Below are positions 71-36,300 of a DNA stretch of 36,300 nt, piece by piece. The stretch is from a virus (taxonomy: Duplodnaviria > Caudoviricetes): the IMG/VR virus record IMGVR_UViG_3300002092_000104, positions 1 through 36,300 of that record, one strand, 5' to 3'. Position numbers and translations under genes: made by a program. The notes under the pieces were generated by a model. It saw only the letters and a program-made list of their open reading frames with translations, was not told where the DNA came from and searched no databases. How positions within the stretch are numbered: the first letter of the stretch is position 1; each line of letters starts with the position of its first letter.

Positions 71-273
71 TGAGCGGTTTAATTGATTGGGAAAAACTAT
101 TTTTTGTTTGTGATCGGTGCGGGAATACCGCACCCTTCCGGCACGGGATGGAAACTTGGTCGATGAAATATGACGAACCAAATCCAAACGATAAACGATC
201 TTTTTGTTCTGAGATCTGCGCGCACGAAATTTATTTAAAAGAAAAAGGGGGTAAAAATGTTTCTACTGTCTAA
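70..273 (+). CDS. Hypothetical small zinc-binding protein
   Basis: 67 aa with CDRC and CSEIC; GGAGG upstream; start coupled to the upstream stop. Confidence 0.7.
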   Translation: MSGLIDWEKLFFVCDRCGNTAPFRHGMETWSMKYDEPNPNDKRSFCSEICAHEIYLKEKGGKNVSTV

Positions 274-418
274 AGATGAAAAGGCAATTTTTGAAGCGGA
301 AGATATTAACGACCTATATATGAAACTTCATAAAATTCAGGGTCAAAGTTGGAGTTACGCATTAAGTTACGGTGGGTATAAAATCACAAAAAAAGAAACC
401 GTAACTAATAAGAATTAG
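257..418 (+). CDS. Hypothetical protein, 53 aa (MFLLSKDEKAIFEAEDINDLYMKLH…), not in ORF track
   Basis: AAAGGGGG SD before ATG 257; TAG at 416-418; fills the gap up to the hairpin cluster. Confidence 0.65.
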   Translation: MFLLSKDEKAIFEAEDINDLYMKLHKIQGQSWSYALSYGGYKITKKETVTNKN

Positions 419-458
419 CGCACTAGACGATCCTTTCCGTCGGGACAAGTGTGCTAAT
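414..458 (+). terminator. Stem-loop after ORF 257-418 with anti-SD-like loop ATCCTTTC
   Basis: TTAGCGCACT (415-424) pairs with AGTGTGCTAA (448-457, one G-U); inner GACG/CGTC stem. Confidence 0.55.
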
Positions 459-460
459 AT
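452..460 (+). promoter_or_regulatory. Extended -10 promoter (TG-C-TAATAT), predicted +1 near 467
   Basis: Matches TGnTAnnnT; the same TGCTA-type element occurs at 536-544 and 24852-24860. Confidence 0.45.
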
Positions 461-466
461 AAAAGA

Positions 467-535
467 AGCGCGGATTTGAGAGTTGCCCCTTTCCTCTCCG
501 CGCTCGCGAGATCCCTGCCGTAAGGCGGGGATTTC
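467..535 (+). ncRNA. Candidate ~70-nt small RNA: hairpin with anti-SD loop plus GNRA-capped terminator-like hairpin
   Basis: AGCGCGGA (467-474) pairs with TCCGCGCT (497-504), loop AGTTGCCCCTTTC; second 12-bp stem 508-519/524-535 with GTAA loop; promoter-like element upstream. Confidence 0.5.
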
Positions 536-544
536 TGCTATGTT
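536..544 (+). promoter_or_regulatory. Extended -10 (TG-C-TATGTT) for a leaderless transcript
   Basis: The hexamer ends 6 nt before ATG 551 and there is no SD; typical actinobacterial leaderless geometry. Confidence 0.55.
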
Positions 545-550
545 ACGGTA

Positions 551-709
551 ATGGGAAAAGCAAAATCTAAAGGGGGGCGAAACGATGATCGCCCAAATGG
601 TAAGGCGTTTAAAAAAGTTAAAAAGGTTCAGAAAAAGACGGGTAAAACAACCGACGGTTATTCACCTTCTAAGGTTGCGATCCGCGCTAATAAACGATCG
701 GAAAAATAA
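551..709 (+). CDS. Small, very basic protein, 52 aa (MGKAKSKGGRNDDRPNGKAFKKVKKVQKK…), not in ORF track
   Basis: ATG 551 to TAA 707-709, directly abutting ATG 710; 18 K/R versus 4 D/E. Confidence 0.65.
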   Translation: MGKAKSKGGRNDDRPNGKAFKKVKKVQKKTGKTTDGYSPSKVAIRANKRSEK

Positions 710-1249
710 ATGACCACGATCGTTGCGATTCAATATGAAGACAGGGTTATTATGGGCGCGGATAGCCTTACTACGGGCGATCGAAAATATAGCCATCCTA
801 AAATCGCAAAGATAACAAAACGTAATAATTATTTAATTGGCGGAAGCGGGCTTGCTGAGGCTTGCGATATTGCTCAGCATATTTGGAATCCACCCACTCC
901 AACAACGGCTGATCGAAAAGACCTTTATCATTTTATGATCTCTAAGGTAATCCCGTCATTAAAGAAATGTTTTAAAGATAACCAATATGATTGGCAAAAA
1001 GACGAAAGCGAAAAAGATCCTAACTTTGCCTTTTTAATTGCGGTAGGCGGGCAGGTTTTTGATATATCAGACGATTTTTCGGTTATGTTGGACGATTCAG
1101 GGGTTTATGGAGTAGGACACGGATCACCGTTAGCGATTGGCGCAATTCACGCGGGCGCGTCGATGGAAGAAGCGTTAAAAATCGCGGCTAGATTTGATCC
1201 TTATACCGCGGCTCCATTTTTGATATTTGAACAAGGTAAACGTGGATAA
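710..1249 (+). CDS. Ntn-hydrolase, proteasome beta subunit / HslV-like protease
   Basis: M-TTIVA start; after Met removal Thr1, Asp17 (ADS) and Lys33 match proteasome-beta numbering; GxG loop (GHGS) and C-terminal DPYT. Confidence 0.85.
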   Translation: MTTIVAIQYEDRVIMGADSLTTGDRKYSHPKIAKITKRNNYLIGGSGLAEACDIAQHIWNPPTPTTADRKDLYHFMISKVIPSLKKCFKDNQYDWQKDESEKDPNFAFLIAVGGQVFDISDDFSVMLDDSGVYGVGHGSPLAIGAIHAGASMEEALKIAARFDPYTAAPFLIFEQGKRG

Positions 1250-1562
1250 AAAAATAGTTGAAAAGGTTTTAAAGCGCGCTAAAGGGTATTGCGAAAAGTG
1301 CGGTCAGTATGGCGAAGATATGGCGCTACATCACCGCAAACTCAAGTCTAGGGGCGGCGTTGATAGTGTTGCTAATTTAATGGTAGTTCACCATAAATGC
1401 CATAATTTGGGGACAGATAGTATTCACGCAAATCCGGCGGTTGCTACGGTTAATGGGTGGATGGTGCCAAGTTGGGCTGATCCGGCGGATTACCCAATTA
1501 AACTTCCCGATGGACTTATAGTAAGATTTCGGGAAGATGGTTCGACAGAAAAAATAGACTAG
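1242..1562 (+). CDS. HNH endonuclease
   Basis: CEKC…LHHRK.KSRGG….NL..VHHKCHN; GTG 1242 after AAGGT is preferred to the track start at 1227. Confidence 0.85.
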   Translation: MDKKIVEKVLKRAKGYCEKCGQYGEDMALHHRKLKSRGGVDSVANLMVVHHKCHNLGTDSIHANPAVATVNGWMVPSWADPADYPIKLPDGLIVRFREDGSTEKID

Positions 1563-3244: not shown

Positions 3245-3856
3245 ATGGACGCTAAAAAAATGAATGTAGAATCGTTAAAAGAATATCCAAACAATGCGCG
3301 ACGCGGTAACGTTTCGTTGCTTGTTGAATCTTTAAAAGTTAATGGACAATATCGACCAATAGTAGTTCAAAAATCAACTAATTACGTGCTTGCAGGTAAT
3401 CACTTATTGCGAGCGGCTAAACAAATTGGTTGGGAAGAAATTGACACAGTAATTATTGATTGCGACGATCAAGCGGCGTTAAAAATTGTTTTAGTAGATA
3501 ATCGCTCTAATGATTTGGGCGAATATAACGATGATTATTTAACGGGATTATTAAAAGATTTAGAAAACTTTAGTGGTACGGGATATAACCAATCAGATAT
3601 AGAAGAATTAGAAAAACTTAGTGGCGTAGAACAAGAAGAACGTCCGGATATTGAATTTTCGTTAGCGTTACGAGAAGAAAATAATTACGTAATTTTAGTT
3701 TTTGATAACGCGTTAGATTGGCAATCAGCAATAACAACTTTTGATCTTAAAACTGTTAAAGCGTGGGACTCAAGAGCAGGTTTTTCACGTGCCGGAATAG
3801 GGCGCGTAATTGCGGGGACGCCAATTCTTGATCGGTTGAATAATGTTAATAGTTAG
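3245..3856 (+). CDS. ParB/Srx-like N-terminal domain protein
   Basis: YPNNAR…SL…GQYRPIVV…VLAGNH…AA..IGW…LVDNR motifs. Confidence 0.88.
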   Translation: MDAKKMNVESLKEYPNNARRGNVSLLVESLKVNGQYRPIVVQKSTNYVLAGNHLLRAAKQIGWEEIDTVIIDCDDQAALKIVLVDNRSNDLGEYNDDYLTGLLKDLENFSGTGYNQSDIEELEKLSGVEQEERPDIEFSLALREENNYVILVFDNALDWQSAITTFDLKTVKAWDSRAGFSRAGIGRVIAGTPILDRLNNVNS

Positions 3857-4577
3857 TCCCTCATATAAGCGCGCGGATGATGTAAAAATTCGTAACTGGT
3901 TTTTTGATATTACTCTTGCCGTTCACGAATTCGAAGCGGAAGAATATAAAGAAAAACAAGGCGGCAATTTAATGATATTGCCTGACTTTACTCGCGGAAA
4001 TATGGCTAAAGTTCGCCAATACATCTTGGATCAAGCGGGCAAAGATGAATGGGTAGTTATGATGGATGACGATGTGGAAGAATTTGGATATTTTGGTAAG
4101 GCGACAAACGAAGATAATTGGATGCCTTACGATAGGGATCAGTTTGTAGAATTCTTAGATCGTGGCTGCTTTATGGCAGAAGAAATAGGAACAAATTTAT
4201 GGGGCGTGAACGTTTCATTCGATCCGCGCTTTTATCGGGAATACACACCCTTGGCGTTTAGTTCGCCGGTACTTGGGACTTTTTGCGTACAAAAGAAAAC
4301 CGAAGGTATTGATTACGATATGAGATTAGGGCTTAAAGAAGATTACGATATATTTCTTCAACACTTACATAAGTTTCATAAGGTATTGCGTATTAACCGT
4401 AACTATTATAAAGCGGCTCACTTAACTGTAAAAGGTGGGTGCGGCGTATATAGAAATATGGCGGAAGAAAAGAAACAAGCAGAAATCTTTACTAAAAAAT
4501 GGGGATCAAAGGTTATTAAATGGGCGCCGGAGAGATCAACAAATCCAAGACTTTATCCGCCAATACCGGGCGTTTAA
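3843..4577 (+). CDS. GT-A fold glycosyltransferase-like protein (GREB1-like / TET-associated family)
   Basis: SPSYKR N-terminal motif, R..I…VMMDDD (DxD), KEDYD..L, GG near the C-terminus; adjacent to ParB and terminase. Confidence 0.75.
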   Translation: MLIVSPSYKRADDVKIRNWFFDITLAVHEFEAEEYKEKQGGNLMILPDFTRGNMAKVRQYILDQAGKDEWVVMMDDDVEEFGYFGKATNEDNWMPYDRDQFVEFLDRGCFMAEEIGTNLWGVNVSFDPRFYREYTPLAFSSPVLGTFCVQKKTEGIDYDMRLGLKEDYDIFLQHLHKFHKVLRINRNYYKAAHLTVKGGCGVYRNMAEEKKQAEIFTKKWGSKVIKWAPERSTNPRLYPPIPGV

Positions 4578-35588: not shown

Positions 35589-35617
35589 TTGTAAAGGTTA
35601 CGGTTTACCCCTACTTT
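35589..35617 (+). promoter_or_regulatory. Sigma70/SigA-type early promoter TTGTAA-17-TACTTT
   Basis: -35 at 35589-35594 and -10 at 35612-35617 with a 17-bp spacer, at a module boundary. Confidence 0.65.
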
Positions 35618-35662
35618 TAGATCGTGAACGGAAAGTCCGAATCACGAAAGGGGCAAAATAAA

Positions 35663-35902
35663 ATGGCAAAAAAAGCAACAGGTAATAAAAAAGGTCAGGA
35701 AGCATTTAAAATATTACAACAATGGCGCGAAGAAGGTGTGCCTGATCTAATTACATCTTATGAAGCGTGGAACTTAACAGGTGGTTTAGTTGGTAAATGT
35801 AATAATTATCAAACACCTATGCGTTTGGTTTTAGTCGCGCTTGAATATTCCGCTAAAGGTGGATCCGTAAAAGATTCTTTAAAAATAAAAGAAGGTGCAT
35901 AA
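35663..35902 (+). CDS. Hypothetical early protein (MAKKATGNKKG…)
   Basis: Strong SD GAAAGGGG before ATG 35663; the track GTG 35624 falls at the predicted +1 and is an alternative leaderless start. Confidence 0.7.
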   Translation: MAKKATGNKKGQEAFKILQQWREEGVPDLITSYEAWNLTGGLVGKCNNYQTPMRLVLVALEYSAKGGSVKDSLKIKEGA

Positions 35903-36169: not shown

Positions 36170-36300
36170 ATGGCATTTAATTTAGATAACTATCAGCCGG
36201 TATCGGAGCGATTGGCACAAGCACACGCGGATCATCCTGATCTTAGAATCCTTACGGATTTGGTTCACGTAGAGCGAAATGCTGAAGGAAAACCACTTCA
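36170..36300 (+). CDS. Truncated 5' end (MAFNLDNYQPVSERL…HPDLRILT), possibly a single-strand annealing protein
   Basis: GGAAGG SD; the FNL..Y..V.ERL…P..RI.T N-terminus recalls phage recombination proteins; only 43 aa visible. Confidence 0.5.
   Translation, partial: MAFNLDNYQPVSERLAQAHADHPDLRILTDLVHVERNAEGKPL

What the first reader, a model, noticed from the sequence alone, without database searches (positions are those of the whole stretch)
452..535. Candidate phage sRNA with an 11-nt loop complementary to the RBS of the first early gene
Seen: an extended -10 (452-460), then an 8-bp stem starting at the predicted +1 (467) whose loop displays TTGCCCCTTTC (483-493), then a 12-bp GNRA-capped hairpin. 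The 11-mer is the exact reverse complement of GAAAGGGGCAA (35646-35656), the SD region of the first gene behind the early promoter at 35589. There is no ORF in the interval. Inference: a self-contained trans-acting sRNA that blocks early-gene or host RBSs at the early-to-late switch.
Basis: partly seen in the sequence, partly recalled or inferred. Interest (0 to 1): 0.75.

Follow-up and report, generated by a model that had tools for sequence, protein, structure and literature searches.

The report
Actinophage anti-ribosome-site hairpin RNA
A phage, likely of freshwater Actinobacteria, carries a conserved hairpin whose loop is the exact mirror of a ribosome-binding tag used by early-cluster genes in it and its relatives; loop and tag change together across related phage groups, so it is likely an RNA that would turn down translation of those genes, though no transcript has been seen.

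Summary
Observation confirmed, with two corrections: only 483-488 is an open loop (489-493 sits in a weak 5-bp helix), and a third hairpin (414-458) overlaps the extended -10. Four relatives keep the loop core TTGCCCCTT while stems change compensatorily (6 of 19 pairs). Their early clusters carry 1-5 genes each with the matching site (AAGGGG[C/T]AA), which is rare in other relatives (7 in 1.67 Mb). A second clade, found by position alone, has loop TTGCCTCC and five early GGAGGCAA sites per genome in the two searched whole. A scan found five more loop/site pairs (41 of 180 loci, 1.7 expected), each loop matching almost only its own genomes. In two groups an upstream loop also mirrors a leader-hairpin loop. 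Five of 10 cluster K mycobacteriophages show the reversed start-associated sequence (SAS) in a hairpin loop; four SAS-bearing genomes have no reversed copy. Best reading (0.68): an antisense RNA blocking a private class of early ribosome-binding sites, working like P1/P7 c4 or 6C but no Rfam member. Expression, ends, timing and repression are untested; host targeting is unsupported. This scan has noted the same kind of element on other DNA (36 unchecked notes).

The parts
414..458 (+). Upstream hairpin H0: 11-bp stem over the stop codon of ORF 257-418; its 3' arm holds the extended -10; weak inner hairpin with loop 430-437. Likely the end of the early transcript, or a 5' domain of a longer RNA
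   Evidence: Fold; paired arms differ in step in L002, L262 and L003
452..460 (+). Extended -10 promoter candidate (TG-n-TAnnnT), predicted +1 about 467
   Evidence: Pattern kept in 5 of 5 group-1 members, differences confined to the nnn positions; activity not tested
467..504 (+). Hairpin H1: 8-bp closing stem around a 22-nt pyrimidine-rich region
   Evidence: 3 of 8 pairs with changes on both sides in 5 sequences
483..493 (+). Anti-RBS 11-mer; 483-488 open seed, 489-493 in a weak inner helix
   Evidence: 9-nt core invariant in 5 of 5 members
508..535 (+). Hairpin H2, 12 bp, GNRA-type loop, short U-rich tail; likely terminator
   Evidence: 3 of 11 pairs with changes on both sides, loop free to vary from 4 to over 20 nt; not called by the terminator scan
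536..544 (+). Second extended -10 candidate whose predicted +1 is the ATG at 551 (leaderless); separates the element from the next operon
   Evidence: Sequence; TGCTAT and the final T kept in 5 of 5
551..709 (+). 52-aa lysine-rich ORF next to the element in groups 1 and 2; no Pfam or PHROG family
241..256 (+). RBS of early-cluster ORF 257: weaker predicted target
   Evidence: Rank 3 of 51 starts
35589..35617 (+). Early-type promoter candidate, -35 TTGTAA, 17 nt, -10 TACTTT
   Evidence: a promoter of this form precedes 11 of 15 matching sites in group 1
35628..35635 (+). 8-mer in the target's leader hairpin complementary to 433-440 of H0: possible second contact (weak)
   Evidence: also in one L303 leader (7 nt), not in the leaders of L302, L304 or L262
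35646..35656 (+). Target RBS, exact complement of the 11-mer
   Evidence: rank 1 of 51; hybrid -19.9, net -9.2 kcal/mol
35663..35902 (+). First early-cluster ORF (79 aa), predicted target; no family

Best explanation
The stretch is a conserved hairpin element whose loop is complementary to a ribosome-binding tag shared by the early-cluster genes of this phage group, and it is likely a phage antisense RNA that would block translation of those genes in trans. Shown: the fold, its conservation with compensatory changes, the complementarity, the tag's confinement to early-cluster genes, and the matched change of loop and tag between clades. Inferred: the RNA is made either from the extended -10 at 452-460 (about 467-540) or as the stable 3' end of the early transcript; the open UUGCCC seed nucleates on the GGGCAA part of the tag, the weak inner helix opens, and 11 pairs cover the Shine-Dalgarno region and exclude the 30S subunit, without a chaperone as reported for 6C RNA. 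As the RNA builds up it would damp the early cassette genes together; timing is inferred only from position and promoter type.
For: Loop core invariant in 5 of 5 members while 6 of 19 pairs change on both sides and 95.6% of cells pair. The one-sided changes mostly give or remove G-U pairs on the + strand, and + folds better in 4 of 5 over the 140-nt region. Matching sites before start codons: window 1, L302 1, L303 5, L304 4, L262 4, against 4 in 781 kb and 3 in 893 kb of other relatives. After the G-run of the RBS, CAA/TAA (which fits the loop, T by G-U) follows in 22 of 40 upstream starts and 0 of 17 downstream starts. Target ranks 1 of 51 starts and the next two are also early-cluster genes. 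Clade 2, found by gene position only: loop TTGCCTCC, with GGAGG[C/T]AA before 5 rightward early starts in G001 and 4 in G002, plus one leftward start each. Seven loop cores against seven genome sets give diagonal counts 13, 11, 24, 23, 10, 6, 4 and no off-diagonal count above 2. Own-match scan: 41 of 180 loci against 1.7 expected from non-kin RBS sets, 5 of 17 kin clusters. In groups 2 and 6 the upstream loop GCCGTTC mirrors a GAACGGC leader-hairpin loop just before the tag in 3 of 11 and 8 of 13 tagged starts, all behind promoter-like sites.
Against: No transcript, end or activity data. The window itself holds only one exact target and is not a hit in the scan; its gene 70 has a clade-2-type site that pairs weakly (-10.1 against -19.1 kcal/mol). 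Five G-rich coding stretches pair better than the target in a raw duplex scan. Only 5 related sequences: pair-level covariation does not beat shuffles (33 and 34 of 500). Groups 3-7 were found through the match itself, so only groups 1 and 2 are a non-circular contrast, and the counts come from related genomes (downstream starts from only two). For H1 alone the strand energies are mixed. In groups 4 and 5 the hairpin sits in a 5' leader next to an SD it could pair with in cis. Four cluster K genomes keep 12-19 SAS cores with no reversed copy, so such tags can exist without such a loop. 139 of 180 loci, many of them fragments, gave no hit at the stricter threshold.
Confidence: 0.68

Rival explanations
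1. The pairing is real but does not repress: the RNA opens leader hairpins, shields the early mRNAs from decay, or brings a protein or nuclease to them.
For: The target RBS is partly folded into a leader hairpin (opening cost 7.0 kcal/mol in the context used), and a second loop-loop contact is predicted in groups 2 and 6. A small basic ORF lies next to the element in groups 1 and 2.
Against: The duplex covers the whole SD region; by established knowledge of c4 and 6C that blocks initiation.
Confidence: 0.12
2. The element is only a terminator-promoter junction between the early cluster and the next operon; the loop match is a leftover of an inverted RBS copy with no function.
For: It lies at an operon boundary with terminator-like hairpins and a promoter behind it in groups 1, 2 and 3; in group 2 H1 is followed by T-rich bases.
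Against: Terminators need no 12-22-nt loop; H2's loop varies freely while H1's core is invariant; loop and tag match in seven groups.
Confidence: 0.08
3. The tag is a binding site for a phage protein (in DNA or RNA); the reversed copy is an operator, or a decoy shown on a minus-strand RNA.
For: Pope et al. left protein or RNA binding to the SAS open; H1 alone folds as well or better on the minus strand in several members.
Against: One-sided stem changes mostly give G-U on + (A-C on -); the reversed copy sits inside a covarying hairpin, which a DNA operator does not need; the inverted arm of H0 lacks the final T of a -10.
Confidence: 0.07
4. The RNA is aimed mainly at host ribosome-binding sites, as a general anti-SD inhibitor.
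For: The loop is pyrimidine-rich and partly resembles a generic anti-SD; 6C RNA binds many host mRNAs through C-rich loops (abstract).
Against: The loop follows each phage group's own tag; GGAG-type late starts of the window pair poorly. The host genome is unknown (one search found no related locus in genomes), so this was not tested directly.
Confidence: 0.05

Closest known systems
c4 antisense RNA of phages P1 and P7 (Rfam RF01695)
   Same: Phage RNA with loop-displayed complementary stretches that bind around the ribosome-binding site of a phage mRNA in trans; sequence differs between related phages and sets heteroimmunity (PMC12197685, passage in section 7).
   Different: No RF01695 match. 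c4 controls the antirepressor mRNA in temperate enterobacterial phages; here a tag shared by several unlinked early cassette genes is matched, and no antirepressor was identified.
6C sRNA of Actinobacteria (M. tuberculosis 6C; Rfam number RF01066 taken from an earlier scan note)
   Same: C-rich loops bind several mRNAs directly without Hfq or ProQ in the same phylum (PMC6486639, abstract).
   Different: Host chromosomal RNA with host targets; no Rfam match here; one short C-run, and a loop that changes with a phage-specific tag.
Start-associated sequences (SAS/ESAS) of cluster K mycobacteriophages and cluster EF Microbacterium phages
   Same: Over-conserved, phage-specific RBS repeats before non-structural genes, of unknown function; four K1 phages have one reversed copy not tied to a gene (PMC3203893 and PMC7302621, passages). 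That copy lies in a hairpin loop in Anaya and four others.
   Different: Different tag sequence; the K hairpin is part of a larger multi-hairpin region, and the loop is absent in 4 of 10 aligned phages and altered in one; the group-1 model does not find it.

Membership tests
c4 antisense RNA (RF01695) | Match to the Rfam covariance model | tested here: not met
   No match at gathering score in the window; not among the 5 weak matches at E up to 10 in 380-600
c4 antisense RNA (RF01695) | Loop-displayed complementarity to the RBS region of a phage mRNA | tested here: met
   (computational only)
c4 antisense RNA (RF01695) | Target is the antirepressor mRNA | tested here: not met
c4 antisense RNA (RF01695) | Shown repression and immunity between related phages | not testable with these tools
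   Needs expression and infection experiments
6C sRNA | Match to the Rfam model | tested here: not met
6C sRNA | Chaperone-free pairing of C-rich loops with G-rich mRNA stretches | not testable with these tools
   Predicted duplex has 6 G-C pairs of 11; binding not measured
SAS-type tag of actinophages | Phage-specific repeat at the RBS position of non-structural genes, in one orientation, with a single reversed copy | tested here: met
   forward copies before early starts; one reversed copy of the 9-mer per group-1 locus, the loop
SAS-type tag of actinophages | The cluster K or EF 13-bp consensus itself | tested here: not met
   The group-1 tag differs from both consensus sequences quoted
Any Rfam family | Gathering-score match | tested here: not met
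   Window; six loci of groups 1-5 gave one chance match at E 0.96
Stand-alone trans-acting sRNA | Discrete transcript with its own 5' and 3' ends | not testable with these tools
   Promoter and terminator are predicted only; no RNA data could be laid on the region

The most novel reading that the evidence does not exclude
Actinophage lineages run a private address system for translation: each lineage tags its early cassette mRNAs with its own RBS extension (in some also a leader-hairpin loop) and encodes a co-evolving one- or two-loop antisense RNA that reads the tag, switching the whole early regulon off and possibly silencing superinfecting kin. The unexplained SAS of K1 mycobacteriophages, with its lone reversed copy in a hairpin loop, would be a culturable case.
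Probability: 0.35. Interest if true: 0.85.

Novelty: new variant of a known kind. Interest (0 to 1): 0.72.

Why it matters
It would be an RNA switch acting on a whole set of a phage's own early genes through a shared, lineage-specific RBS tag; the phage antisense RNA closest in mechanism that I read about (c4) acts on one mRNA. It also offers a testable answer to a question left open in 2011, what the over-conserved start-associated sequences of actinophages are for: in K1 mycobacteriophages the lone reversed SAS lies in a hairpin loop and can be mutated in M. smegmatis. Natural loop/tag pairs that do not cross-match would also give orthogonal translation switches for Actinobacteria.

Tried and rejected
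Expression: no RNA holder listed for window 300-1300, so no reads were laid; this is no evidence either way. Pattern scans for more group-1 members: 16 stretches, 1 the window's own record, none a new member; 119 loci listed of about 260; the three clear two-hairpin folds were known members; 34 stretches, 4 known members; loop left free: 4 stretches, all known members; the pattern was built from them; 4 stretches, all known clade-2 contigs. No match to window 400-720 among 50,697 GenBank phages; no related locus in bacterial genomes. A minus-strand gene using the loop as its RBS was rejected: no ATG/GTG start of a 30-aa ORF follows in any member. A cis role on the next gene was rejected for group 1: ORF 551 has no SD and ranks 49 of 51. 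The H0-leader match is not kept in L302, L304 or L262 and stays a hint. The group-1 model finds group-6 elements weakly (E about 3e-5, rough) and none of groups 2-5 or cluster K, so one shared family is not shown. No family or look-alike for the target protein. Literature: nine searches listed no paper whose title or abstract start describes such an RNA; one search was swamped by unrelated papers. In the supplements of the 10,000 viral RNA catalogue (PMC10690425) six loop strings were not found, but files 1, 2 and 4 were not searched and mmc1-3 could not be read, so the RNA may be listed there; bioRxiv supplements were not available.

Full report
Context. The window is a whole 36,300-base linear virus record, 88% complete, all main genes on +. 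Its right end holds the start of an early cluster (promoter 35589, ORFs 35663, 35906, 36170), its left end the last small genes (70, 257) before an HslV-like peptidase, HNH, SSB and terminase block. The two ends do not join; part of the early cluster is missing. Relatives carry WhiB (G001, G002; L303, L304; none found in the window itself), so an actinobacterial host is inferred (WhiB as an actinobacterial marker is my own knowledge); the freshwater habitat is inferred, not read from a record.

Observation. All stated features are at the stated places (z = -5.95). Only 483-488 is predicted open; 489-493 closes a weak 5-bp helix with one G-U. A further hairpin H0 (414-458) carries the extended -10 in its 3' arm, and a second extended -10 (536-544) points at ATG 551. 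An inverted 11-mer alone means little: the window has 346, though only this one links a gene start to intergenic DNA.

Homologs. The best 80 of 202 loci for the peptidase, 48 for ORF 551 and the best 80 of 106 metagenome loci for its alignment gave four distinct relatives with the element: L302, L002/L303, L003/L304, L262. The 9-nt core is invariant in 5 of 5; 6 of 19 pairs of H1 and H2 change on both sides and 95.6% of cells pair; slid controls give 37-60%, but the two pair-level measures do not beat shuffles (33 and 34 of 500) and five related sequences are few. H2's loop varies freely. One-sided changes mostly make or remove G-U pairs on +, and + folds better in 4 of 5 over the whole region, although H1 alone is mixed. 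The TG-n-TAnnnT pattern is kept in all five, its variable positions changing in step with H0's other arm, which suggests selection on both promoter and hairpin.

Targets. AAGGGG[C/T]AA before a start codon occurs 1, 1, 5, 4 and 4 times in window, L302, L303, L304 and L262, always upstream of the element or in the window's early cluster, against 4 in 781 kb (73 peptidase loci without the element) and 3 in 893 kb (122 ORF-551 loci). L302, 94% identical to the window's left end, has a perfect site about 540 bases upstream of where the window begins, so the missing part likely holds more targets. Eleven of 15 such starts lie behind a CTTG-17-TAnnnT promoter-like site. Among starts with a G-run RBS, the next bases are CAA/TAA in 22 of 40 upstream and 0 of 17 downstream (Fisher p 5e-5; genomes related, downstream set from two of them). 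With opening costs included, ORF 35663 ranks first of 51 window starts, 70 and 257 next; in a raw genome-wide duplex scan five G-rich coding stretches score better, and gene 70's site is a poor match.

Loop and tag change together. Four loci found only because they carry the ORF-551 and peptidase homologs (L049, L050, L056, L062) have at the same place a hairpin with loop TTGCCTCC, and the two complete genomes have GGAGG[C/T]AA before 6 and 5 starts, with the group-1 site before 0 and 1. GGAGG-type sites are commoner in the background (46 in 781 kb), so this tag is less private. A scan for any hairpin loop complementary to an 8-mer present in at least three of a locus's own RBSs hit 41 of 180 loci, against 7.7 expected from all foreign RBS sets and 1.7 from non-kin sets; 5 of 17 kin clusters. 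It revealed groups with loops CCTCTCTC, GCTATCTCCTT, GTCTCCTT, CTCCAGTT (at the two-site threshold) and TTCCAGTC. The loop-by-genome matrix is diagonal (13, 11, 24, 23, 10, 6, 4; off-diagonal at most 2; 25 chosen loci). Groups 3-7 were picked through the match, so the matrix shows specificity, not independent discovery. The window itself is not a scan hit, having one exact site. In groups 2 and 6 an upstream hairpin loop GCCGTTC mirrors the GAACGGC loop of a leader hairpin directly before the tag (3 of 11 and 8 of 13 tagged starts), a predicted second, kissing contact; the group-1 counterpart (433-440 with 35628-35635) is weak. In groups 4 and 5 the hairpin follows a -10 and precedes an SD and ATG, so a cis role is possible there, though in group 4 the longest matches (10-12 nt) are to other genes. 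The group-1 model recovers group-6 elements weakly and no others: shared design, common descent not shown.

Link to print. Pope et al. 2011 (PMC3203893, passages read) describe the 13-bp SAS at the RBS of non-structural genes of cluster K phages, function open, with a single reversed copy in four K1 phages. In Anaya that copy forms the 10-nt loop of an intergenic hairpin between genes 96 and 97; the region is shared by 150 records. The loop is present in 5 of 10 aligned phages (core unpaired with probability 0.91-0.99 in the four computed), altered in Amohnition, absent in Yuna, Keshu, SirPhilip and Pixie; TM4, Pixie, Yuna and SirPhilip have 12-19 forward cores and no reversed one (Keshu not searched whole). 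So the parallel is real for K1 but a tag does not require such a loop. Microbacterium EF phages have similar unexplained repeats (PMC7302621, passages); I did not test them.

Comparison. It works like c4 of P1/P7 (PMC12197685, part 1 of 6 and one passage) and like 6C RNA (PMC6486639, abstract and outline) but belongs to neither family by Rfam. PMC2864571 (two passages) lists c4 in its table; PMC10914365 (passages) reports phage antisense RNAs without this mechanism in the passages seen; PMC10690425 was seen as a listing and in part of its supplements. The nine paper searches named under Tried and rejected listed no description of such an RNA; the library lacks most subscription journals. Earlier notes of this scan report the same kind of element in at least 36 other genomes (8 shown); none is a look-alike of this sequence. 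They are unchecked and gave me the c4 and 6C leads; the cluster K link I had reached before reading them.

Verdict. The structure and its tie to the early RBS tag are well supported by comparison; an RNA that would repress early translation is the best reading (0.68). Transcript, ends, timing, sign of the effect and host targets are untested. New variant of a known kind; interest 0.72, raised by the matched change of loop and tag across clades and by a direct test of the SAS question in a culturable phage.

Noticed in passing
L388:34856-34905 (Anaya record about 59855-59905) and L391-L398: The lone reversed SAS of K1 mycobacteriophages lies in the loop of a covarying hairpin within a conserved multi-hairpin intergenic region behind a terminator near the right genome end; the tip of that hairpin differs in other cluster K phages.
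   Followed up: partly
L006, L028, L030, L067, L077, L079 (minus strand, e.g. L028:1024): Long interrupted hairpin with loop CCTCTCTC matching the AGAGAGG RBS class on both strands, followed by a strong extended -10 promoter-like site.
   Followed up: partly
L256:13982, L233:14076, L239:5653, L261:13592: Anti-RBS hairpin directly behind a -10 and directly before the SD of the next gene; could act in cis as a pseudoknot as well as in trans.
   Followed up: partly
L037:9831, L057:9859, L042:7151: Multi-hairpin element with loops mirroring both the GAACGGC leader loop and the AACTGGAG RBS, ending in a terminator-like hairpin; weakly found by the group-1 model.
   Followed up: partly
L049:9650-9800: Tandem CCACCACCGCCGCC-type repeats inserted between the hairpin and the promoter of the ORF-551 homolog, absent in L050, L056 and L062.
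   Followed up: no
window 35595-35603, 541-548, 398-405: A TTACGG-type box recurs in the spacer of early promoters and beside the -10 of ORF 551 in groups 1 and 2, with an inverted copy at the end of ORF 257; possible regulator site, but the word is also common in coding DNA (17 matches).
   Followed up: partly
window 551-709: Small lysine-rich ORF, likely leaderless here; in group-4 phages its homolog carries the tagged RBS and lies about 4 kb before the hairpin.
   Followed up: partly
window 36254-36300 and L303:1-47: The window's last 47 bases are identical to the start of L303, a relative about 79% identical elsewhere: likely an assembly break shared by two strains. Left and right parts of the window match separate contigs (L001, L399), so their linkage was not checked independently.
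   Followed up: partly
window 3245-4577: ParB-N domain gene followed by a TET-associated glycosyltransferase (PF20691) just before the terminase genes: possible DNA-modification module.
   Followed up: no
L224, L225, L248, L324 (upstream of the ORF-551 homolog): Very stable multi-hairpin leader (about -88 kcal/mol over 236 nt) of unknown kind.
   Followed up: no
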